This document shows, piece after piece, positions 1,069-51,293 of a DNA stretch of 64,000 nt (position 1 is the first letter of the stretch; every line of letters begins with the position of its first letter). The stretch comes from Minisyncoccota bacterium (GTDB taxonomy: Bacteria > Patescibacteriota > Minisyncoccia > Phycocordibacterales > SBAW01). Under the pieces are notes generated by a model. The model ran no database searches. It saw only the letters and a program-made list of their open reading frames with translations, and was not told the origin of the DNA. A program made the position numbers and the translations under genes. Where the stretch lies: the NCBI GenBank assembly GCA_035546615.1, contig DASZWM010000006.1, positions 1-64,000 of the forward strand. The letters are read 5' to 3'.

Positions 1069-1841
1069 TGAGCAAGGTTTCACCTTGCTCAGACTCAGAA
1101 CTACTCTTTATAGGATAGCCACTCCGTTATGTTTTGCCTGAAGTTCTCCGGCGTTTCAAAATACCGTGGGAGGGCCGTTGATTCCAATACTGTCGCTTCC
1201 GGGCGCCCACGCCCCAGGTAATCGGGATAGCTTGAGTACGCATACCTCTCCAAATATGCGTCGGTTTTTTTCCTATTCTTGATCCCGTGCTCTCTCCAGT
1301 TTTTGTCGATGAGTTTTACCGGATTCAGATGTATATACGAAAGGAGATATTTCAGATACCGGTCTTCTTCGGCGTGTTCCGATTTGAATACCCCCTGGAA
1401 CAGTGCGCCATTCCTTTCGTAGCGTTTATTAAAATACATCGTGTATCCCGTCGTCAGTTTCTGCATGAATCTGCTGATACCGTCGCCACCTTTCTCGCGT
1501 ACCAGCAGGTGAAAGTGGTTCGGCATCAGGCAATATGCAACGATATCGACGAGCGTCTCTCCGCGTTCTTGCGTCAACGCGCGCCCAAGCAAGGTGAAAT
1601 CTTTCGCAGGGTGGGCACGCTGCATATTGTCGATGCGAATTGGTTCTTTAGAATTGGCGAGATAGAGCAGGCATATAAAACGCTCGTAATCTTCCGTATG
1701 CACGAATACCTTTCTTTTGTCCGTGCCGCGGTTGTATAGGTGATAGAACTCTTGGGGAGCGAAAGGCGCGCGATTGGTCATAGGGGCAATATAGTAATGA
1801 ATCCCCATTTGAGCAAGGTTTAACCTTGCTCAAATGGGGAT
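1069..1841. mobile_element. tnpA-only IS200-like / RAYT unit bounded by near-identical palindromic hairpins
   Basis: Left hairpin TGAGCAAGGT-ttc-ACCTTGCTCA (~1069..1091). Right 41-nt perfect palindrome ATCCCCATTTGAGCAAGGTT-t-AACCTTGCTCAAATGGGGAT (~1801..1841) containing the tnpA start codon. Both share core GAGCAAGGTT. Confidence 0.6.
1101..1808 (-). CDS. IS200/IS605-family HUH (Y1) transposase, REP-associated tyrosine transposase (RAYT)-like
   Basis: YHLYNRG N-terminal motif; HUH motif in MPNHFHLLV; downstream Tyr-containing region. Locally lower GC. Flanked by hairpins. Confidence 0.7.
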   Translation of the reverse strand: MGIHYYIAPMTNRAPFAPQEFYHLYNRGTDKRKVFVHTEDYERFICLLYLANSKEPIRIDNMQRAHPAKDFTLLGRALTQERGETLVDIVAYCLMPNHFHLLVREKGGDGISRFMQKLTTGYTMYFNKRYERNGALFQGVFKSEHAEEDRYLKYLLSYIHLNPVKLIDKNWREHGIKNRKKTDAYLERYAYSSYPDYLGRGRPEATVLESTALPRYFETPENFRQNITEWLSYKE

Positions 1842-1871
1842 AGGAGAAAAAGAAGCTATATACTACTGGCT

Positions 1872-2891
1872 ATGGCGGTACGCGTTGCTATTAACGGGTT
1901 CGGGCGCATCGGACGCGCTTTTTTGCGCGCTTCCTGGGACGACCCGGCAGTAGAAGTAGTAGCTATCAACGACCTCGGCGATATCTCAAACTTGGTGTAT
2001 CTCCTCCAGTACGACAGCGTATACCGCACGTTCTCGCAGAAAGTCTCGGTTGAGAGCGGCCAGCTGATGGTTGGCGACAAGCATATCCATATCACCGCGG
2101 AAAAAGACCCGACCAAGCTGCCGTGGAGCTCTCTTAACATAGACGTGGCGGTAGAATCCACAGGAGTATTCGACTCCTACGAGAAGGCGAGCGCGCATCT
2201 GACCGCCGGCGCCAAGCATGTGGTCATTTCAGCTCCCGTGAAGGACGAAATGGCGGGTGCGGGGACAGTGCTCATGGGGGTGAACGAGGACAAGCTCGGC
2301 GCCTGCCAGATAACCTCCAACGCCTCGTGCACCACCAATTCAGTCTCGCCGCTCATCGCAATACTCGACGAAAAGATCGGCATCGAGAAGGCATTGCTCA
2401 ATACCACGCACGCCTATACCGCGACGCAGTCGATAGTCGACTCGCCGGTCAAGGGCTCCGACTTTCGCCGAGGCCGCGCCGCCGCGCAGAACATGTCGCC
2501 GTCATCGACGGGCGCCGCGGTCGCGGTGACAAAGGCGTACGAGCAGCTTACCGGAAAATTCGACGGCATTTCCATTCGCGTGCCGGTGGTGGCGGGCTCT
2601 ATCGCCGATGTTACCTTCCTCGCCAAGCGCGATACGACCGCCGAGGAAGTGAATTCGATACTCGAAGCCGCCGCACAAGAGGACCGCTGGAAGGGTATAT
2701 TCGACGCCACGCGCGAACAGCTGGTTTCGGGCGACATCATCGGCAACGGCCACGCGTCCATCGCCGACCTGGGGCTAACGCGCGTCGTGGGCGGCAACCT
2801 GGTGAAGGTCCTGGCCTGGTACGATAACGAAATGGGGTATACGCACACCCTCATCAGGCACGTAAAGAAAGCGGGCGCCCAAGCCAAGTAA
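1872..2891 (+). CDS. gap: Glyceraldehyde-3-phosphate dehydrogenase
   Basis: N-terminal NGFGRIGR Rossmann motif; active-site SNASCTTN; 339 aa. Confidence 0.92.
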   Translation: MAVRVAINGFGRIGRAFLRASWDDPAVEVVAINDLGDISNLVYLLQYDSVYRTFSQKVSVESGQLMVGDKHIHITAEKDPTKLPWSSLNIDVAVESTGVFDSYEKASAHLTAGAKHVVISAPVKDEMAGAGTVLMGVNEDKLGACQITSNASCTTNSVSPLIAILDEKIGIEKALLNTTHAYTATQSIVDSPVKGSDFRRGRAAAQNMSPSSTGAAVAVTKAYEQLTGKFDGISIRVPVVAGSIADVTFLAKRDTTAEEVNSILEAAAQEDRWKGIFDATREQLVSGDIIGNGHASIADLGLTRVVGGNLVKVLAWYDNEMGYTHTLIRHVKKAGAQAK

Positions 2892-16729: not shown

Positions 16730-17029
16730 ATGTGGAATATTGATTGGAGCTTAATAGGAATCGTAGGTCTTGCAGTAGCCACTATGTCTATTGCTATTAA
16801 GATTATCGGAGTACCTGACCAGATAAAAAGGAATTATCGTCGCAAATCAACGGAAGGAGTTTCTCTTTTATTCTATGTAATGTCTTTTGCCACTTATTTT
16901 CTCTGGGCATTATATGGATTTTTAAAAGATGATTGGGTTGTGTTTCTCGCTCAAGGTTCTTTAGGCTGTGTCACAAGTGGCATCATTCTTTGGCAATTTT
17001 TTGTGTATAGAAAAAACAAAAAGATATGA
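16730..17029 (+). CDS. SemiSWEET / PQ-loop family small transporter (AT-rich insert in pheST operon)
   Basis: 99 aa, 3 TM; architecture and motifs parallel to SemiSWEETs (…IGVPDQIKRNYRRKSTEGVSLLFYVM…LWALYGFLKDD…); stop overlaps pheT start (ATGA). Confidence 0.6.
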   Translation: MWNIDWSLIGIVGLAVATMSIAIKIIGVPDQIKRNYRRKSTEGVSLLFYVMSFATYFLWALYGFLKDDWVVFLAQGSLGCVTSGIILWQFFVYRKNKKI

Positions 17030-18849
17030 AAATCTCGCGCCGCTGGATTCAAAACTTTTTCAATGACGAACTGTCGAACACGCAGGCGCTTGCCGACGCG
17101 CTTACGTTCCACGCCTTCGAGATAGACGGCATCGAGCCGTATTCTGGACTTACGAAGTCCAGAATTTTGGACGAGATACTGGACGTTAAGGTTACCCCTA
17201 ACCGCGGGCACGATTGCCTGTGTCACCGCGGCATCGCAAAAGAACTTTCAGCCATTCTTAAGCTTCCGCTTAAGCAAGACCCGCTCGGCAAGAAGCCGGA
17301 GCTTGTCCCAGCTACCGATGCCGTTTCCGTAACGCTTGAGGACCCGGCGCTTAGCCCGCGCTACATCGCCGGATACATGAAGAACGTGAAGGTCGGTCCG
17401 TCGCCTGACTGGCTTGTAGAGGCCCTTGAAGCCATGGGCCAGCGCTCAATCAACAATGTCGTTGATGCGACGAACATGGTGATGTTCAATCTCGGCCAGC
17501 CCTTGCACGCCTTTGACGCGGGCAAGCTCGCGCAGAAAGACGGCAAATATGGCATCGTCGTCCGCAGGGCGCGTGCGGGAGAGAAGATCCTCGCGCTCGA
17601 CCAGAAAGAGTATGTCCTTCAGGATTCCATGCTCGTTATTGCCGACGGCAACAAGGACGAAGCTATCGGCATCGCCGGCGTGAAGGGCGGCACGCCGGCG
17701 GGCATTACCGAAGCGACGACCGACATCATCATCGAGTCCGCCAACTTCAACGGCGTGTCCGTCCGTAAGACCGCCCAGGCGCTGAAGCTGCGCACCGACG
17801 CGTCCAGCCGCTTTGAGCAGGGCCTCAGCCCCGAGCTGTGCGCATACGGCATGCAGCAGGTCGTTGATCTCATAAAAACAATCGCAAGCGGGGAACTGGT
17901 CGGCTTTGCCGATGTATATCCGGCGCCCCAAGGGCCCGCCTATGCTGCAGTATCGGTAGAGAAGGTCAATCAGATACTGGGTACTCAGCTCACCGGCACG
18001 GAGGTGGCGGACGCTTTTGCGCGCCTCGGCTTCGCATACAAAGAAGAGAATGGAGTATTCCAGGTCACGGTCCCGTTCGAGCGCCTCGACATAACGATCC
18101 CGGAAGATTTGGTCGAGGAGGTCGGCCGCATCGTCGGCTACGACAAGGTACCCGCTGTGCCTCTGCCTCCCATGCCCCCCTCTTCCCAAGCAAGCGCGAG
18201 CTTCTCGGCGACAGAGCGCGTCCGCGCGGATCTCATAAAGCAGGGATATTCGGAAGTTCTTACGTCCGTATTTTCAGACAAGGGCGAGCGCGCGGTGTTA
18301 AATAAAGTGGACAGCGTAAAGCCGTATTTGCGCAGCAATCTCACCGATGGACTTACCGAAGCTCTGAAAAAGAACATTCCGAACAAAGACCTGCTTGGAC
18401 TTAAGGAAGTAAAGCTGTTCGAGATAGGAACTGTCTGGAAAGGTGATAAGGAGGAAGTAGTGGTCGGCACCGTAAGCGAAAAGAAGCAGGCCGAAGAAAA
18501 AGCGCTGAGCGAATATGCGGCTGATTCGGCTCCTGTACAAGACCTGCCGCTTTCGCAAACGGAGCGGTACCAGTCATTCTCCAAGTATCCCTACATCGTG
18601 CGCGATATCGCTATGTGGACTCCTGCACGTACGACGCCCGAATCGGTTCAGGAACTTATACAGGCTGAGGCGGGGGAGTTGTGCACAAAAGTATCGCTCT
18701 TCGACCAGTTCCAAAAAGGAGAAAAGACTTCGCTCGCGTTCCGCCTAATATTCCAATCATTTGAAAAGACGCTCACGGAAGGGGATGCAAACCAGGCGAT
18801 GGAAAAGGTAGCGGCAAAACTGAAAGAAAAAGGCTTCGAGATCAGGTAA
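17026..18849 (+). CDS. pheT: Phenylalanyl-tRNA synthetase beta subunit (short, 607 aa)
   Basis: N-terminal tRNA-binding (VTPNRGHDCL), B5 domain, C-terminal FSKYPYIVRDIAMW anticodon-binding region. Confidence 0.88.
   Translation: MKISRRWIQNFFNDELSNTQALADALTFHAFEIDGIEPYSGLTKSRILDEILDVKVTPNRGHDCLCHRGIAKELSAILKLPLKQDPLGKKPELVPATDAVSVTLEDPALSPRYIAGYMKNVKVGPSPDWLVEALEAMGQRSINNVVDATNMVMFNLGQPLHAFDAGKLAQKDGKYGIVVRRARAGEKILALDQKEYVLQDSMLVIADGNKDEAIGIAGVKGGTPAGITEATTDIIIESANFNGVSVRKTAQALKLRTDASSRFEQGLSPELCAYGMQQVVDLIKTIASGELVGFADVYPAPQGPAYAAVSVEKVNQILGTQLTGTEVADAFARLGFAYKEENGVFQVTVPFERLDITIPEDLVEEVGRIVGYDKVPAVPLPPMPPSSQASASFSATERVRADLIKQGYSEVLTSVFSDKGERAVLNKVDSVKPYLRSNLTDGLTEALKKNIPNKDLLGLKEVKLFEIGTVWKGDKEEVVVGTVSEKKQAEEKALSEYAADSAPVQDLPLSQTERYQSFSKYPYIVRDIAMWTPARTTPESVQELIQAEAGELCTKVSLFDQFQKGEKTSLAFRLIFQSFEKTLTEGDANQAMEKVAAKLKEKGFEIR
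17141..17165. repeat. 25-nt perfect palindrome ATTCTGGACTTACGAAGTCCAGAAT inside pheT (codes YSGLTKSRI)
   Basis: Read directly; same core recurs at 43719 and 27626. Confidence 0.9.
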
Positions 18850-24480: not shown

Positions 24481-24873
24481 ATGAACGACCACGGTAAAAA
24501 GGGGGTTCTGAAGCAAGTCATTGCTGAGGACCTCGGTGGCAAGACTCAGAAGTGGTGGCAAGGCAAGCTGCATGTTTACATGCGGCAAACCGAGCTTGCC
24601 CGGGAAGATCTTACAACGGTCAAAACCGAACTCGCAGCTGCTGTCGCCAAGGGCGAATCGGCCAAGAGCCAGGTTGCAGCCCTGGAAGAGCGCGTTACTC
24701 GCCTCGAAACCGAACTGGCTGAAGCCGGACGGAAAGAGAGCGAGTTCCGCGCGCAGATCGCTGAACTGGAAACGGAACAGTGGGAACCTGGTGATGTTGA
24801 AGATATCTTCAACATGATGACGGGTCCCTGGGAGACTGCCATCGCCAGCATGGAAAAGGAGCACGGGCTTTGA
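24481..24873 (+). CDS. Coiled-coil protein
   Basis: Heptad-rich ELA/ELE repeats; overlaps next ORF by 4 nt. Confidence 0.45.
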   Translation: MNDHGKKGVLKQVIAEDLGGKTQKWWQGKLHVYMRQTELAREDLTTVKTELAAAVAKGESAKSQVAALEERVTRLETELAEAGRKESEFRAQIAELETEQWEPGDVEDIFNMMTGPWETAIASMEKEHGL

Positions 24874-26091: not shown

Positions 26092-26122
26092 GCAGAGCGA
26101 TCGATATGATCGATCGCTCTGC
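26092..26122. promoter_or_regulatory. 31-nt perfect palindrome GCAGAGCGATCGAT-atg-ATCGATCGCTCTGC
   Basis: Read directly; between small secreted ORF and the repeat-protein gene; not followed by a clean T-run. Confidence 0.4.
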
Positions 26123-26232: not shown

Positions 26233-27531
26233 ATGAACAGCAATATTATAAACATAGGTCGTAAGATAAGCGTTGCTCTTATAGCGCTTATAGTTCTCGT
26301 GTTGCCTTTCGCTTCGGTGCAGGCAGCTGACTACTCTGACTATGATTATGTCGGGACCTCGTATTATGGTTCTGACTCTTCTAGCGATTACGTCGGGACT
26401 TCCTATTATGATTCCGGTTCTTCAAATAGTGGGAGCGATTACGTAGGAACGTCTTACTATACTCCTGATACTTCCAATGACTATGATTACGTTGGAACTT
26501 CGTACTATGAAGATAACTCTTCTGACTATGATTATGTCGGAACCTCCTATTATGGCTCTGGCTGCACCACGAACTGTGGCGGCGGTGGAGGTGGCGGCGG
26601 GGGCGGCGGATGCCGTTCTAACTGCACCCCTCCTCCTCCGAAGCCGGCCCCGGTTTGCGACCTCTCGGTCAGCCCTTCGCGCGTAGATTACGGCGATTCC
26701 GTAACTATCTCCTGGACCACGTCCAACGCCATCAGCGCCTTCCTCGCCGGTTTCGGCACGGTGTCCACTAACGGCTCCCGCACCAGCGGCGCTATCTATG
26801 GCACCAAGACCTACACTCTTACCGCGACCGCAAGCGGCGGCCGCACGGTAACCTGCTCCAAGACCGTTACAGTCGAGCGCGAGCATGAGCACACGCCCGA
26901 TCTCGAGTGCAAGCTTAAGGCTTCCGACACGAGCATCGAGCGCGGAGACTCGGTCCGCATCACCTGGTCTAGCGACGGCGCTGACTACGGCTACATCACT
27001 CCGGATATCGGTGATGTCGATGAAAGCGGTTCCGACACGGTAGAACCTCGCTCTGATACGACTTACAAGGGTACCTTCTACAACGACGACGGCGACAAGG
27101 TTACCTGCTCGGTCAAGGTAAACGTTGACCGCGAGTACAATCCGCCGGTCTACGAGAATCCGACTCCGTACATTAACCTCTCCGCTGTTCCGTACACCGG
27201 CCTTGACCTCGGTCCTGTCGGTACGGTTCTCTACTGGGCGTTCCTCATCGCATGGTGCCTCGTTGCCGCATACCTTATCGCGGTCAAGCGCGTCCACATG
27301 AGCGTGTACCGCTGGTACAAGAAGGCGCTCTTCGGCGAGGAGGTGCACTTCGCGCCGGCGCAGGAAGTCTCCTTCGCAGGGTTCTCCCACGCTGATGTCG
27401 CAAAGCTCGCAGAGATGCTTCGCGGCGCAGTCGCTCCCTCGCACGCTTCGGCACCTGTTGCTGCAGCTCCCGCAGGCGATGCGATAGACCCGTTCATCCT
27501 CTCGCAGATCCATCGCACTCCGCGCTCCTAA
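26233..27531 (+). CDS. Surface repeat protein: 5x DYVGTSYY repeats, poly-Gly/Cys spacer, two Ig-like C...C domains, TM, cytoplasmic tail
   Basis: Signal peptide; repeats D-Y-(D-Y)-V-G-T-S-Y-Y separated by S/D-rich spacers; CGGGGGGGGGGGGC; PPPPKP; two ~70-aa Cys-bounded beta-rich modules; VLYWAFLIAWCLVAAYLIAV TM. 5' third is AT-rich. Confidence 0.5.
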   Translation: MNSNIINIGRKISVALIALIVLVLPFASVQAADYSDYDYVGTSYYGSDSSSDYVGTSYYDSGSSNSGSDYVGTSYYTPDTSNDYDYVGTSYYEDNSSDYDYVGTSYYGSGCTTNCGGGGGGGGGGGCRSNCTPPPPKPAPVCDLSVSPSRVDYGDSVTISWTTSNAISAFLAGFGTVSTNGSRTSGAIYGTKTYTLTATASGGRTVTCSKTVTVEREHEHTPDLECKLKASDTSIERGDSVRITWSSDGADYGYITPDIGDVDESGSDTVEPRSDTTYKGTFYNDDGDKVTCSVKVNVDREYNPPVYENPTPYINLSAVPYTGLDLGPVGTVLYWAFLIAWCLVAAYLIAVKRVHMSVYRWYKKALFGEEVHFAPAQEVSFAGFSHADVAKLAEMLRGAVAPSHASAPVAAAPAGDAIDPFILSQIHRTPRS

Positions 27532-27590
27532 AGCGCCGAAGCGGATGCCTCTGCGCAAGCAGGGAACAAGCCTCCAAAATATTGTCAGCA

Positions 27591-27617
27591 AAATCCCGCC
27601 GTATGGCGGGATTTTGC
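27591..27617. terminator. Bidirectional terminator AAAATCCCGCC-gtat-GGCGGGATTTT
   Basis: A/T tracts on both sides of GC stem; between convergent repeat-protein gene and thrS. Confidence 0.6.
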
Positions 27618-27625
27618 GTTACAAC

Positions 27626-27652
27626 TATTCTGGACTTCGTAAGTCCAGAATA
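27626..27652. repeat. Palindromic element copy TATTCTGGACTTCGTAAGTCCAGAATA (opposite centre orientation), abutting thrS stop codon
   Basis: 27-nt palindrome; centre CGT instead of ACG; intergenic between convergent genes. Confidence 0.9.
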
Positions 27653-28900
27653 TTATTTGCGCTCGGCTATCTCTTCCTTCAGTTTTGAAACTATTTCGGC
27701 AATGGGGAGTGCTCCAAGTTTGCCTTCGCGGCCCTCAAGGCTTGCGGTGTTGGCTGCAACTTCCGCGTCGCCGATCACAAGCGTGTAGGGGATTTTCTGC
27801 GTCTTTGCCTCGCGTATCTTCTTGCCTAGGCTCTCATTGCTTTCGTCGATGTCCGCGCGGATGCCAGCCCTCTTGAGCTCCTGCGCGACCTTTGCGGCAA
27901 ATTCTTTGTGCGGCTCGGCAATAGGAATGACGCGAGCCTGAAGGGGAGAAAGCCAGGTGGGAAGCGTGCCGTCGTAGTGCTCAAGCAGTACCGCGATGCA
28001 GCGCTCGAGGCTGCCGGCTATAGCCGCGTGCACCATCACGATGCGCTCCTTCTCGCCCTTTTCATTGATGCAGGTAAGGTCGAAGCGCTCGGGGATGTTC
28101 ATGTCGAGCTGGATGGTCGCGACCTGCCACTCGCGCCCGGCGGAATTCTTTGCCATGAAATCGAGCTTGGGCCCGTAGAGCGCCGCCTCGCCCGGGCCTT
28201 CAAACGTGTCGGCCCCGCGTTCCTCGGCAAGGCTGCGCAACTCGCTCTCGGCCTTGTCCCATATCTCCGGGGTACCTAGATATTTCTCGGGAGTCGCCGG
28301 GTCGCGGAAGGAAAGCCGTATACGCAATGTGAAGCCGAATGTCTTGTAGAAGGTGTCAACGATATCCCAGATCTTTAGGAATTCCTCGCGCACCTGACTA
28401 GTGCGGCAGAATACGTGTGCGTCGTCCTGAGCAAAACCCAAAACGCGAGTGAGGCCGCCAAGCTCTCCGGACTGCTCGTCGCGGTAGACCATGGTGGTCT
28501 CGGCGTAGCGCTGCGGCATCTCGCGGTACGAGAACGGCCGCCGCGCGAATATCTGCGTGTGGTGCGGGCAATTCATCGGCTTCATCGCGTACTCGCGGCC
28601 CTCGCGCGACGTTATCTTGAAGAGGTCATCGGCGAACTTTTCCCAGTGGCCGCTTGTCTCATAGAGGTCTTTCTTGGTGATGTGGGGGATGGTGACGCGC
28701 TCGTAGCCTCGCGCTTCGCGCATCTCCCAAATAAAGCGGTCGAGCTCCTGGCGCAGAATAGTGCCGCGCGGGGTCCACAGCGGCAGGCCCGAGCCGACGA
28801 GGTCGGAGAAGGTGAAGAGGTCGAGCTCCTGGCCAATTTTGCGGTGGTCGCGTTCTTCCATAGATAGTTCCAAGAGTATCAAGTGTGGGGATTTTTGCAA
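27653..28900 (-). CDS. thrS: Threonyl-tRNA synthetase, catalytic + anticodon-binding domains only (no N-terminal TGS/editing domains)
   Basis: PMNCPHH, RVLGFAQDDAHVFC class II motifs; 415 aa versus ~640 aa canonical. Confidence 0.88.
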   Translation of the reverse strand: MQKSPHLILLELSMEERDHRKIGQELDLFTFSDLVGSGLPLWTPRGTILRQELDRFIWEMREARGYERVTIPHITKKDLYETSGHWEKFADDLFKITSREGREYAMKPMNCPHHTQIFARRPFSYREMPQRYAETTMVYRDEQSGELGGLTRVLGFAQDDAHVFCRTSQVREEFLKIWDIVDTFYKTFGFTLRIRLSFRDPATPEKYLGTPEIWDKAESELRSLAEERGADTFEGPGEAALYGPKLDFMAKNSAGREWQVATIQLDMNIPERFDLTCINEKGEKERIVMVHAAIAGSLERCIAVLLEHYDGTLPTWLSPLQARVIPIAEPHKEFAAKVAQELKRAGIRADIDESNESLGKKIREAKTQKIPYTLVIGDAEVAANTASLEGREGKLGALPIAEIVSKLKEEIAERK

Positions 28901-35651: not shown

Positions 35652-36344
35652 ATGCAGAAAGACTTTACGGCATTTGAGGCTTCCCTCGGCCTGACCTTCC
35701 GCGACCCGGCGCTTTTGCGCCAGGCTTTTACGCATCGCTCGTACCTCAATGAACACCGTTCTGAGGGCAGCGCGCACAACGAACGCCTCGAGTTCCTCGG
35801 CGACGCCGTGCTCGAGCTCATCGCCACGCACTTTTTGTACGAGAAATTCCCCGCGCATCCGGAGGGCGACCTGACGGCATTCCGCGCCTCGCTCGTGAAT
35901 GCCGTAACGCTCGGCGGCGTGGCGGCGGAAATAGGCATGAACGACTACCTGCTTCTTTCAAAGGGCGAAAGCAAGGACAACGGTCGCGCCCGCAGCGTGC
36001 TCCTGGCCAATGCCATTGAGGCGCTGGTGGGCGCGATATATCTTGACCAGGGCTATGATGCCGCGAAGGCCTTTATCGAAAAGCATCTCTTCCCCAAACT
36101 CGACGAGATAGTGCAGAAGAAGCTTTGGCGCGACGCCAAGTCGGTGCTTCAGGAGCGCGCGCAGGAAACGGAAGGCGCCACGCCATCGTACTCGGTCATG
36201 ACCGAGTCCGGCCCCGACCACGACAAGCAGTTCGTCGTCGGCGTCTACGTAAAAGACACGATGCTGGCCAAGGGAAGCGGCAAGTCAAAGCAGGAGGCGG
36301 AGCAGGACGCCGCCCGCAACGCGCTTGAAGCCAAGGGGTGGTAA
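35652..36344 (+). CDS. rnc: Ribonuclease III
   Basis: ERLEFLGDAVLEL catalytic signature; C-terminal dsRBD; 230 aa. Confidence 0.9.
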   Translation: MQKDFTAFEASLGLTFRDPALLRQAFTHRSYLNEHRSEGSAHNERLEFLGDAVLELIATHFLYEKFPAHPEGDLTAFRASLVNAVTLGGVAAEIGMNDYLLLSKGESKDNGRARSVLLANAIEALVGAIYLDQGYDAAKAFIEKHLFPKLDEIVQKKLWRDAKSVLQERAQETEGATPSYSVMTESGPDHDKQFVVGVYVKDTMLAKGSGKSKQEAEQDAARNALEAKGW

Positions 36345-43500: not shown

Positions 43501-44153
43501 ATTTCCATGTCGTAACGCTTTTTCCGGAAGTTATCGAGGCCTATACGAACGCTTCGATACTGGGCCGTGCCCAGAAAGAGAAGAAGTTTTCCGTTAAGAC
43601 CTACCAGCTGCGCGATTTCGTCAGCAATAAATGGGGCAAGGTAGACGAGCGCCCATACGGCGGCGGCCCGGGCATGGTTATCCAGGCCGAGCCGGTCATC
43701 AGGGCAGTCCAGAAAATATCTGGACTTACGAAGTCCAGAATTCGGCCGAAGGTCATTATTACTGCGGCAGGCGGCAAGCCTTTGACCAACGCGTATGCCA
43801 AAGCGCTTTTGAAGCAAAAGGACGTCATAATCGTTTGCGGCAGGTACGAAGGCATCGACGCCCGGGCAAAAAAAGTGCTCAAGGCCGAAGAAGTCTCCGT
43901 TGGGCCGTACATTCTGACCGGGGGCGAGGTTCCGGCCTTGGCAATCATTGATGCGACCGCTCGGCAGATAAAGGGCGTTTTGGGCAAGTTCGAGTCCCTC
44001 GAGGAGTCCCGGGTCGCAAGCCACGAGATATACACCCGCCCCGAGGTCCTGAAAGCAAAAGGAAAGAACTACGCGGTCCCGAAGGTCCTCCTCTCCGGCC
44101 ATCATGCAAAGATGGACCAGTGGAAAGAAAAGAAACGCAGCAAACCCCTATAA
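43497..44153 (+). CDS. trmD: tRNA (guanine37-N1)-methyltransferase
   Basis: MNFHVVTLFPEV...; RPYGGGPGMV; CGRYEGIDAR SPOUT-knot motifs. Confidence 0.9.
   Translation: MNFHVVTLFPEVIEAYTNASILGRAQKEKKFSVKTYQLRDFVSNKWGKVDERPYGGGPGMVIQAEPVIRAVQKISGLTKSRIRPKVIITAAGGKPLTNAYAKALLKQKDVIIVCGRYEGIDARAKKVLKAEEVSVGPYILTGGEVPALAIIDATARQIKGVLGKFESLEESRVASHEIYTRPEVLKAKGKNYAVPKVLLSGHHAKMDQWKEKKRSKPL
43719..43739. repeat. Palindromic element copy TCTGGACTTACGAAGTCCAGA inside trmD (codes ISGLTKSRI)
   Basis: Identical 21-nt core and identical reading frame as the pheT copy. Confidence 0.9.

Positions 44154-44315: not shown

Positions 44316-51293
<6,978 letters not shown>

What the first reader, a model, noticed from the sequence alone, without database searches (positions are those of the whole stretch)
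27626..27652. Intergenic, inverted-centre copy of the palindromic element abutting the thrS stop codon
TATTCTGGACTTCGTAAGTCCAGAATA is the same arms with centre CGT (the reverse complement of ACG), so the element exists in both orientations. Here it forms a 12-bp-stem hairpin directly 3' of thrS, next to a canonical bidirectional terminator. This suggests the element can function as, or be selected as, a 3' stem-loop. An intergenic copy plus coding copies is the signature of a dispersed repeat family rather than a coding constraint.
Basis: seen in the sequence. Interest (0 to 1): 0.6.

Follow-up and report, generated by a model that had tools for sequence, protein, structure and literature searches.

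The report
REP-like mobile palindrome after thrS
The 27-base hairpin directly after the threonyl-tRNA synthetase gene is one copy of a small dispersed palindromic repeat which, in related candidate-phyla-radiation bacteria, brackets a REP-type tyrosine transposase gene; it is an ordinary kind of element (a REP) found in a host group where none seems to have been described.

Summary
TATTCTGGACTTCGTAAGTCCAGAATA lies at 27626-27652, forms a 12-bp stem with a 3-nt loop, abuts the thrS stop codon and sits 8 nt from a bidirectional terminator. Two more perfect copies lie in frame inside pheT and trmD; shuffles of the window give none.

It belongs to a family I call REP-A, consensus ATATCTGGACTT-ACG-AAGTCCAGATAT. 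In four independent Saccharibacteria or metagenome contigs, REP-A flanks a Y1/HUH transposase gene in inverted orientation. That gene's only NCBIfam hit is REP-associated tyrosine transposase (RAYT). The window's homologue of that gene has the E. coli RAYT-REP complex as its best structural match.

The thrS copy is lineage-specific. The closest relative has it at the same spot, but with the loop flipped and a different flank subtype. Two further relatives lack it.

The best reading is a RAYT-type REP inserted in a permissive spacer between stop codon and terminator, which is the typical REP position. An effect on the mRNA 3' end is possible but untested.

It differs from classical REPs: no GTAG tag, perfect arms, low copy number and in-frame coding copies. 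The window's own RAYT is flanked by a different palindrome, so the enzyme that moves REP-A in this genome is unidentified.

The parts
27626..27652 (.). REP-A copy, the finding. It is a perfect palindrome with 12-bp arms and a 3-nt loop (CGT on +, ACG on the thrS sense strand). It is the subtype with one extra base pair per arm (TAT-TCTGG...CCAGA-ATA).
27653..28861 (-). thrS, short 402-aa form (HVV15309.1). Its stop codon TAA (27653-27655) abuts the element.
27588..27617 (.). Bidirectional intrinsic-terminator-like hairpin, GCAAAATCCCGCC-GTAT-GGCGGGATTTTGC. It is shared by the convergent ORF and thrS, and is conserved in relatives with or without the element.
26233..27531 (+). Convergent upstream ORF (432 aa) with no Pfam or NCBIfam hit. 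With thrS it bounds the 121-nt intergenic spacer that holds the terminator and the element.
17140..17166 (+). REP-A copy in frame in pheT, reading Y-SGLTKSR-I. It sits at the junction where the B2 domain of E. coli PheT is missing.
43716..43742 (+). REP-A copy in frame in trmD, reading I-SGLTKSR-I, in a variable surface loop. 24 nt are invariant in three genomes whose trmD genes are 78-88% identical.
1101..1781 (-). RAYT-like Y1/HUH transposase gene (HVV15278.1, 226 aa). It is 34-43% identical to the REP-A-flanked RAYTs of other contigs.
1069..1091 (.). REP-B palindrome TGAGCAAGGT-TTC-ACCTTGCTCA, downstream flank of the window RAYT. It is a different family from REP-A.
1801..1841 (.). REP-B palindrome, extended to a 20-bp stem, upstream flank of the window RAYT.
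1588..1608 (-). Degenerate internal REP-B remnant inside the RAYT ORF. It occupies the position where other RAYT genes carry an intact in-frame copy of their cognate REP.

Best explanation
The hairpin is a solo copy of a REP-type element: a short palindromic, non-autonomous mobile repeat, here called REP-A. Its cognate enzyme is a RAYT-like Y1/HUH tyrosine transposase, which acts on the hairpin the element forms in single-stranded DNA.

Shown:
- The family exists across CPR genomes.
- It brackets the RAYT-like gene in inverted orientation.
- Copies are gained and lost between close relatives.
- The thrS site was occupied by two different subtypes, in opposite loop orientation, in two sister lineages.

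Inferred:
- Copies are made by RAYT-catalysed cleavage and strand transfer of the ssDNA hairpin, by analogy with E. coli TnpA_REP.
- The thrS copy persists because the spacer between the stop codon and the terminator is one of the few places a compact CPR genome tolerates an insertion. Surface loops of proteins, reached by in-frame 27-nt insertion, are another.
- Once there, the element is transcribed as part of the thrS 3' UTR and adds a stable hairpin starting right at the stop codon. This could slow 3'-exonucleolytic decay or interfere with translation termination. On the opposite strand it could back up termination, because the hairpin is followed there by UUAUUU. I regard these effects as by-products, not the reason the element exists.
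For: 1. Family and chance. There are three perfect copies in 64 kb against 0 in shuffles. In the public scans, 19 of 32 exact matches to the 18 specified bases carry an ACG or CGT loop, where chance would give 2 in 64. All of these lie in CPR-like contigs; the other loops are at chance frequency in unrelated taxa.

2. RAYT link. In L006, L014, L016 and L021 a 211-226-aa ORF is flanked within about 10-70 nt by REP-A. On the gene's sense strand the upstream copy always has loop CGT and the downstream copy loop ACG (no downstream copy was found in L021). These ORFs pass the Pfam Y1_Tnp threshold, and their only NCBIfam hit is REP_Tyr_transpos. The HUH motif and the catalytic Tyr are conserved. 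The AlphaFold model of the window homologue (pLDDT 86) matches 4ER8, E. coli RAYT bound to a REP hairpin, best: E 2.5e-5, against 2e-3 or worse for the IS608, IS200 and ISDra2 transposases.

3. Turnover. ThrRS relatives at 91% and 88% identity (L031, L032) lack the element but keep the terminator. The 94% relative (L030) has it at the same spot with the loop flipped and the other flank subtype. The trmD copy is present only in the four closest TrmD orthologues (90% identity or more) out of 120.

4. Position. Intergenic copies lie 0-25 nt after stop codons. One in L016 has the same TAA-TAT-TCTGG junction. Published REP surveys report the same: convergent-gene REPs lie less than 20 bp from ORF 3' ends, and intragenic REPs occur (PMC3733652).

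5. Five of the six reading frames of the element are open, and 27 nt is 9 codons (read from the sequence).
Against: - No REP-A-flanked RAYT is visible in the window. The window's RAYT (1101-1781) is flanked by a different palindrome, REP-B, so the enzyme acting on REP-A in this genome is unidentified.
- The element lacks the 5' GTAG or CGTC tag that E. coli TnpA_REP needs for binding and cleavage (PMC3479197).
- Its arms are perfect, not imperfect.
- Copy number is low: 3 in 64 kb, and 6 in the Saccharibacteria MAG.
- The RAYT-like proteins score below NCBIfam's equivalog cutoff (34-50 bits against 80).
- No transposition event was observed directly.
- The trmD copy is invariant at nucleotide level across three diverged genomes (P about 7e-4). 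There are no decayed copies with up to 5 mismatches. Purely neutral selfish DNA does not predict either result.
Confidence: 0.7

Rival explanations
1. The element is kept at thrS primarily as a functional RNA 3' stem-loop. It would stabilise mRNA against 3' exonucleases, tune translation termination because it abuts the stop codon, or act as a second terminator.
For: - The RNA hairpin is very stable (dG -14.4, z -6.7).
- It occupies the same position in two sister genomes even though the loop is flipped, which leaves the stem unchanged.
- Many family members lie 0-25 nt after stop codons.
- On the + strand, the hairpin plus TTATTTGCGC scores as terminator-like.
- E. coli REPs are reported to stabilise upstream mRNA, and to lower expression when within about 15 nt of a stop codon. 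This is my recollection of Newbury 1987 and Liang and Deutscher 2015, neither of which was retrieved here.
Against: - There is no U-tract after the hairpin on the thrS sense strand.
- A full terminator follows 8 nt later and is conserved in relatives that lack the element.
- Relatives with 88-91% identical ThrRS do without it.
- Two of the three window copies, and the copies inside RAYT genes, are in coding sequence, where a 3' stem-loop role is impossible.
- The link to a transposase gene is not explained.
Confidence: 0.15
2. The palindrome is a double-stranded DNA binding site for a dimeric host protein, such as a transcription factor, a nucleoid protein or a restriction-modification enzyme, and not a mobile element.
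For: - It has perfect two-fold symmetry with a fixed 3-bp centre.
- The trmD copy is conserved at nucleotide level beyond coding needs.
- It is all-or-none, with no decayed copies.
Against: - Copies sit after stop codons and inside coding loops, not at promoters.
- There is presence/absence turnover between close relatives.
- The element has a tight, oriented association with a Y1 transposase gene in four independent contigs.
- No regulator gene is consistently adjacent.
Confidence: 0.08
3. REP-A copies are the terminal hairpins of an autonomous IS200/IS605-type insertion sequence, in which the Y1 gene and its two ends move as a unit. Solo copies such as the thrS one would then be footprints or remnants, not elements mobilised in trans.
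For: - The Y1 gene flanked by two hairpins resembles an IS.
- The family passes Pfam Y1_Tnp.
- The closest non-self homologue of the window RAYT is only 65% identical, while housekeeping genes have 90-94% relatives. This is compatible with horizontal movement or loss.
Against: - The flanking hairpins are in inverted orientation, as for RAYTs (PMC2817692). IS200/IS605 ends lie on the same strand (my own knowledge).
- The structure model matches RAYT better than the IS608, IS200 and ISDra2 transposases.
- Solo copies are clean 21-27-nt palindromes without adjacent gene remnants.
- The RAYT sits beside gap in both the window and L006, which suggests vertical retention.
Confidence: 0.05
4. The match is due to chance, to a peptide motif (SGLTKSR), or to an assembly artefact.
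For: None beyond the fact that two of the copies are coding.
Against: - Shuffles give 0 matches.
- The intergenic copy, and copies read in another frame, exclude a peptide constraint.
- The same element lies at orthologous sites in independent assemblies from NCBI, JGI and Logan.
Confidence: 0.02

Closest known systems
REP / REPIN elements with their RAYT (TnpA_REP) transposase, together called REPtrons, of Proteobacteria and other phyla
   Same: - Short (20-40 bp) dispersed palindromes that fold as ssDNA or RNA hairpins.
- They flank a Y1/HUH transposase gene in inverted orientation.
- They sit mostly just downstream of ORFs, often between convergent genes.
- Occasional intragenic copies occur.
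- REP sequence and RAYT clade co-vary: REP-A and REP-B go with two RAYT clades.
- The best structural match of the protein is E. coli TnpA_REP (4ER8).
   Different: - No 5' GTAG or CGTC tag.
- Arms are perfectly complementary and extended by A/T (ATAT...ATAT), not imperfect.
- Very low copy number, mostly singlets rather than REPIN doublets or BIMEs.
- A high share of in-frame coding copies.
- The RAYT is longer (about 226 aa against 165) and falls below the NCBIfam equivalog cutoff.
- RAYT genes carry an in-frame internal copy of their own REP.
- The host group is the CPR (Patescibacteria), for which I found no report.
Rickettsia palindromic elements (RPEs)
   Same: Palindromic repeats that insert in frame into protein-coding genes, including essential ones, adding a short peptide at the surface. 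They occur in small, compact genomes.
   Different: RPEs are about 100-150 bp. Some end in CGTC (PMC3733652). No dedicated transposase is known for them. REP-A is 27 bp and is linked to a RAYT-like gene.
Subterminal hairpins of IS200/IS605 insertion sequences (IS608, ISDra2)
   Same: Hairpins recognised in ssDNA by a Y1/HUH transposase of the same Pfam family (PF01797).
   Different: In IS200/IS605 the left-end and right-end hairpins are on the same strand, are imperfect, carry guide tetranucleotides, and the whole IS moves. Here the flanking copies are inverted and solo hairpins are dispersed.
Rho-independent (intrinsic) terminators
   Same: A stable stem-loop at a gene's 3' end. On the + strand it is followed by a T-rich stretch.
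   Different: The stem has only 4 G-C pairs out of 12. There is no U-tract on the thrS sense strand. An actual G+C-rich terminator lies next to it. The same sequence also occurs inside genes.

Membership tests
REP (repetitive extragenic palindrome) sensu lato | Short (about 20-40 bp) palindrome able to form a stem-loop | tested here: met
   27 nt, 12-bp stem and 3-nt loop. RNA dG -14.4 (z -6.7); ssDNA dG -10 (z -8.6)..
REP (repetitive extragenic palindrome) sensu lato | Dispersed in multiple copies per genome, usually more than 100 | tested here: inconclusive
   3 copies in the 64-kb window, and 6 in the Saccharibacteria MAG on 3 contigs. The whole genome of the window organism could not be scanned. 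Copy number looks far lower than in classical REP hosts.
REP (repetitive extragenic palindrome) sensu lato | Extragenic location, preferentially just 3' of ORFs | tested here: inconclusive
   The thrS copy, and about 10 copies elsewhere, lie 0-25 nt after stop codons. However, 2 of the 3 window copies, and the copies inside RAYT genes, are in frame within coding sequence. Intragenic REPs are known but rare (PMC3733652).
Classical GTAG/CGTC-tagged REPs (substrates of E. coli-type TnpA_REP) | Conserved 5' tetranucleotide (GTAG or CGTC) at the foot of an imperfect hairpin | tested here: not met
   In 25 oriented copies the flanks are ATAT...ATAT (weakly CCC...GGG), with no GTAG or CGTC, and the arms are perfect. 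The requirement for GTAG is from PMC3479197.
REPtron (RAYT gene plus its flanking REPs) | The REP flanks a RAYT gene on both sides in inverted orientation | tested here: met
   Met for REP-A in L006, L014 and L016 (both sides) and in L021 (upstream only). On the gene's sense strand the upstream loop is CGT and the downstream loop ACG. Not met inside the window, where the RAYT is flanked by REP-B instead.
RAYT (REP-associated tyrosine transposase) | Y1/HUH fold with the His-hydrophobic-His motif and the nucleophilic Tyr | tested here: met
   Pfam Y1_Tnp scores 28-38 bits against a cutoff of 23. The motifs NH(F/Y)HLL and Y(I)HLNP are invariant. The model (pLDDT 86) has 4ER8 as its best PDB match, E 2.5e-5.
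RAYT (REP-associated tyrosine transposase) | RAYT-specific sequence signature: NCBIfam NF047646 equivalog score; N-terminal conserved Thr and NP(L/V)(R/K)xG after the Tyr (Nunvar 2010) | tested here: not met
   NF047646 is the only NCBIfam hit, but at 33-50 bits, below the cutoff of 80. The window clade has T20 and NPVKLI (partial match). The REP-A clade has V and NPLDFL. No PDB hit by sequence. It is a distant relative, not an equivalog.
RAYT (REP-associated tyrosine transposase) | Single copy per genome, vertically inherited | not testable with these tools
   No complete genome could be scanned. There is only one copy in the 64-kb window. The position beside gap is shared by the window and L006.
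Rickettsia palindromic elements | Element of about 100-150 bp, inserted in frame in many genes of Rickettsia | tested here: not met
   In-frame insertion is shared, but the element is 27 nt, has an unrelated sequence and occurs in CPR hosts.
Intrinsic terminator | G+C-rich stem followed by a U-tract on the transcribed strand | tested here: not met
   On the thrS sense strand the hairpin is followed by AUAGUUGUAACGC. Only 4 of the 12 pairs are G-C. A terminator-like tail exists only on the + strand.

The most novel reading that the evidence does not exclude
CPR bacteria may harbour a large, undescribed branch of REP/RAYT systems: more than 6,400 homologues of the window RAYT were found.

In this branch the transposase gene itself carries an in-frame internal copy of its cognate hairpin at a fixed position, a disordered loop just before the HUH motif. 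That copy has the same loop orientation as the downstream flanking copy and is inverted relative to the upstream one. The internal hairpin co-varies with the flanking REPs in two clades (REP-A and REP-B). In the REP-B clade it appears as the codon-complementary peptide QQGxTLL.

This would point to a built-in autoregulatory or master-copy hairpin. It would also mean that solo copies such as those at thrS, trmD and pheT are maintained at nucleotide level by the system, through gene conversion or selection, and do not decay as junk.
Probability: 0.3. Interest if true: 0.7.

Novelty: new variant of a known kind. Interest (0 to 1): 0.45.

Why it matters
REP/RAYT systems have been studied almost entirely in Proteobacteria, where they are regarded as long-lived, vertically inherited partners of the genome. 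Finding the same logic in ultra-small CPR genomes extends the phenomenon to a very different genome economy. These genomes have almost no intergenic space, and the hairpins end up abutting stop codons and in frame inside essential genes (pheT, trmD, and the transposase gene itself).

There are two practical consequences. First, the element explains short lineage-specific peptide inserts in CPR housekeeping proteins. Second, it explains odd hairpins at 3' ends that could otherwise be taken for regulatory RNAs.

The internal hairpin in the transposase gene, if confirmed, offers a testable handle on how RAYTs recognise and control their REPs.

Tried and rejected
1. I first thought all copies read ACG on the sense strand of the host or adjacent gene, which is true for the 3 window copies and the in-gene RAYT copies. 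The sister genome L030 refutes this: it has CGT on the thrS sense strand.

2. Clean-insertion test for the trmD copy. The closest orthologue without the element (L029) differs by a net 9 nt in a divergent loop, so no clean empty site could be shown. PDB alignments show only that the loop is variable.

3. PheT orthologue comparison.

4. Search for a REP-A-type RAYT in the window. Only a REP-B-flanked homologue was found. The window's MAG is not in the gene-position index.

5. Known RNA families. Rfam gave only a tRNA in the window.

6. Phage origin. There were 0 matches in viral contigs.

7. Degenerate copies. None with up to 5 mismatches in the window or in relatives.

8. Sequence search of the RAYT against the PDB gave nothing. 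Only the fold search worked.

9. The paper on REPs near stop codons (Liang and Deutscher) could not be retrieved from the library, so that point rests on my own recollection.

Full report
**1. Observation**

Positions 27626-27652 read TATTCTGGACTTCGTAAGTCCAGAATA. This is a perfect palindrome with 12-bp arms around a 3-nt centre.
- As RNA it folds with dG -14.4 kcal/mol (z -6.7); as ssDNA with dG -10 (z about -8.6).
- The next three bases, TTA (27653-27655), are the complement of the stop codon of a minus-strand ORF.
- That ORF is threonine--tRNA ligase: TIGR00418 scores 492 bits against a cutoff of 384. It is a short 402-aa form, HVV15309.1.
- Eight bases to the left lies GCAAAATCCCGCC-GTAT-GGCGGGATTTTGC (27588-27617), a G+C-rich hairpin between an A-run and a T-run.
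- The core TCTGGACTT-NNN-AAGTCCAGA occurs three times in the window, against zero in 100 shuffles.
- The other two copies are in frame in pheT (17143-17163, reading Y-SGLTKSR-I) and trmD (43719-43739, reading I-SGLTKSR-I).

**2. A family, not a coding constraint**

I scanned public genomes and metagenomes for the 18 specified bases.
- 32 exact matches were found, and 19 of them have an ACG or CGT centre. Chance would give 2 in 64.
- All 19 lie in CPR-like contigs of 36-61% G+C. The remaining centres occur singly in unrelated taxa, at about the expected chance rate.
- Oriented by the loop, 25 non-redundant copies give the consensus (cc)ATATCTGGACTT-ACG-AAGTCCAGATAT(gg), which is 27 nt or 9 codons.
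- The thrS copy belongs to a subtype with one extra base pair per arm (ATAT-T-CTGG).
- Five of the six frames are open. The element is read as SGLTKSR in pheT and trmD, and as LDLRSPD inside transposase genes.
- No decayed copies with up to 5 mismatches exist in the window or in relatives.

**3. Link to a RAYT-type transposase**

In a Saccharibacteria MAG (L006), four copies lie within 1.5 kb around a 226-aa ORF. Two flank the ORF, one is inside it, and the fourth lies about 730 nt beyond its stop. Homologues of this ORF (54-67% identical) are bracketed by REP-A in three further independent metagenome contigs, L014, L016 and L021.

On the gene's sense strand the upstream copy always has loop CGT and the downstream copy loop ACG. 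This is an inverted arrangement, the defining layout of RAYT genes (PMC2817692).

The proteins have these properties:
- They pass Pfam Y1_Tnp.
- Their only NCBIfam hit is REP-associated tyrosine transposase, although below its equivalog cutoff.
- They keep the HUH motif and the catalytic Tyr.

The window has its own homologue at 1101-1781 (minus strand, HVV15278.1), 34-43% identical to the above.
- Its AlphaFold model has pLDDT 86 and pTM 0.86.
- The best PDB match is 4ER8, E. coli RAYT bound to a REP hairpin (E 2.5e-5). The IS608, IS200 and ISDra2 transposases follow at E 2e-3 or worse.
- More than 6,400 homologues (E of 1e-10 or better) exist. Those that carry a source name are nearly all named Patescibacteria.

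**4. A complication**

The window's RAYT is not flanked by REP-A. It is flanked by a different palindrome of the same architecture, REP-B: TGAGCAAGGT-TTC-ACCTTGCTCA at 1069-1091, and a 20-bp-stem version at 1801-1841.
- REP-B also flanks the RAYTs of two other Paceibacterota, L033 and L036. These are 58% identical to the window's RAYT.
- REP-B is found only at RAYT loci.

There are therefore two RAYT clades with two cognate palindromes. The enzyme that moves REP-A in the window's genome is not visible in these 64 kb. I could not scan the rest of the MAG.

**5. History of the thrS copy**

The window organism is a Paceibacterota MAG. I fetched the thrS 3' region of three relatives.
- L030 (GCA_035546075.1; ThrRS 94% identical, thrS 86% at nucleotide level) has REP-A directly after the stop codon too. 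On the thrS sense strand, however, its loop is CGT and its flanks are the other subtype. L030 reads TAA-TA-TCTGG...CCAGA-TAT-GGGCGG, whereas the window reads TAA-TAT-TCTGG...CCAGA-ATA-GTTGT.
- L031 (91%) and L032 (88%) lack REP-A. They keep the downstream terminator and the conserved TGACAATATTTTGGAG.
- L031 carries an unrelated insert of about 130 bp, bounded by inverted repeats, at the same place.

The spacer between stop codon and terminator is therefore a permissive site that has been hit repeatedly. The element is a recent, lineage-specific arrival there. Both orientations occur relative to the gene.

**6. History of the trmD copy**

- Of 120 TrmD orthologues (78-100% identical), only the four closest (90% or more) have SGLTKSR. 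The others have a short KKSK-type loop or other inserts.
- In three genomes whose trmD genes are 78-88% identical, the 24 nt ATATCTGGACTTACGAAGTCCAGA are invariant.
- This stretch lies in the longest invariant run of the gene. P is about 7e-4 over all sites and about 6e-4 for the eight third-codon positions.
- The palindrome itself, not just the peptide, is being kept or re-homogenised.
- The closest orthologue without it differs by a net 9 nt in a divergent loop, so a clean empty site could not be shown.
- In PheT the element sits at the junction where the B2 domain of E. coli PheT is absent.

**7. Position relative to genes**

Intergenic family members lie 0-25 nt after stop codons in L001, L003, L006, L014, L016, L017, L018 and L030. 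One L016 copy has the same TAA-TAT-TCTGG junction as the window's thrS copy. This matches what is published for REPs: most REPs between convergent genes lie less than 20 bp from ORF 3' ends, and intragenic REPs occur in several species (PMC3733652).

**8. Mechanism**

Shown:
- family membership;
- the oriented association with a RAYT-like gene;
- turnover between relatives;
- preference for, or tolerance of, sites just after stop codons and in-frame loop sites.

Inferred by analogy with E. coli TnpA_REP, which binds the REP hairpin in ssDNA, cleaves it and transfers strands (PMC3479197): REP-A is copied by a RAYT acting on its ssDNA hairpin.

At thrS the element is transcribed ahead of the real terminator.
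- On the thrS strand it has no U-tract, so it is not a terminator there.
- It could protect the 3' end after trimming. Because it starts at the stop codon, the terminating ribosome must unwind it, and it might dampen expression as reported for E. coli REPs near stop codons. That report is my recollection and was not retrieved.
- On the + strand the hairpin is followed by TTATTT and scores as terminator-like. It could therefore back up termination of the convergent ORF 26233-27531.

None of this is required to explain its presence.

**9. Comparison with known systems**

The element works like a REP/RAYT (REPtron) system, but it does not meet every defining feature of classical REPs.
- There is no GTAG or CGTC tag.
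- The arms are perfect.
- Copy number is low.
- Many copies are coding.
- The RAYT is a distant relative below the equivalog threshold.
- It shares in-frame insertion with Rickettsia palindromic elements, but not size or sequence.
- Rfam has nothing at the locus, and viral contigs have no copy.
- Full-text searches found no paper linking RAYT, REPIN or REP with the CPR, Patescibacteria or Saccharibacteria. The hits were incidental.

**10. Verdict**

The "selected 3' stem-loop" idea is unproven and unnecessary. The element is best described as a new variant of the REP/RAYT kind in CPR bacteria.

As a finding about thrS it is fairly ordinary. What would interest a specialist are three things:
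- the host group;
- the nucleotide-level conservation of coding copies;
- the internal REP inside RAYT genes (see the items noticed in passing).

Interest score: 0.45.

Noticed in passing
L006:2915-3690; L016:3990-4750; L021:2925-3160; L033:2974-3768; L036:3161-3926; window 1588-1608: RAYT-like genes carry an in-frame internal copy of their own cognate palindrome at a fixed place: about aa 45-65, a low-pLDDT loop before the HUH motif. Its arms are the longest of the copies (13-16 bp). Its loop orientation matches the downstream flanking copy and is inverted relative to the upstream one. This holds for both REP-A and REP-B loci. In the REP-B clade it encodes the codon-complementary peptide QQGxTLL, and G.TL is present at that position in 86 of 120 homologues. 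The window's internal copy is degenerate.
   Followed up: partly
window 1069-1091 and 1801-1841: The window's RAYT is flanked by a second palindrome family, REP-B (AGCAAGGT-nnn-ACCTTGCT). REP-B is found only at RAYT loci, here and in L033 and L036. The dispersed REP-A copies have no visible cognate RAYT in the window.
   Followed up: partly
L034:3226-3243, and the TrmD orthologue alignment: The same TrmD surface loop carries other short inserts in other Paceibacterota: SSIYGTKK, TTIYRSTRTK, RLTKSNRK, SGFTKPRY and others. The one examined at DNA level is a perfect 18-bp palindrome, AGTTCCATATATGGAACT. The loop seems to be a hot spot for palindromic insertions. The core CCATATATGG resembles the outer flanks CCCATA..TATGGG of some REP-A copies.
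   Followed up: partly
L031:11212-11350: At the same spacer between thrS stop codon and terminator, a relative (GCA_035546575.1) carries an insert of about 130 bp bounded by the inverted repeats GCAAGATACTGATTTT and AAAATTAGTATCTTGC. It looks like a MITE.
   Followed up: no
window 1101-2891; L006:2965-4778: The RAYT-like gene lies divergently next to gap (GAPDH) both in this Paceibacterota window and in a Saccharibacteria MAG. GAPDH is 63% identical and the RAYT 38%. Either the synteny is old or the site is favoured.
   Followed up: partly
window 44316-51293: rpoB and rpoC are fused into a single 2325-aa ORF. They are also fused in relative L027 (2284 aa), but in L029 they are called as 1770 + 531 aa.
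   Followed up: no
window 27653-28861 and 17026-18849: ThrRS is a short form: it aligns with TIGR00418 only from profile position 167, so the N-terminal part is missing. PheT lacks the B2 (OB-fold) domain present in E. coli PheT residues 39-150.
   Followed up: partly
window 24794-24815, 26092-26122, 36190-36207: Other perfect palindromes that are not G+C-rich terminators: ATGTTGAAGATATCTTCAACAT, GCAGAGCGATCGATATGATCGATCGCTCTGC (14-bp arms) and ACTCGGTCATGACCGAGT. Each is single-copy in the window.
   Followed up: no
L008:3168-3188; L015:1545-1565: A Saccharimonas locus has the same arms and the TAT flank but a GGG/TGG centre. It may be a loop variant of REP-A.
   Followed up: no
L012:155-190; L013:1028-1069; L017:3940-4005; L021:3111-3152; L026:4160-4205: In some metagenome contigs REP-A copies occur as close pairs with a second full or partial hairpin, sometimes with the loop inverted. 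These resemble REPIN-like doublets. The window copies are singlets.
   Followed up: no
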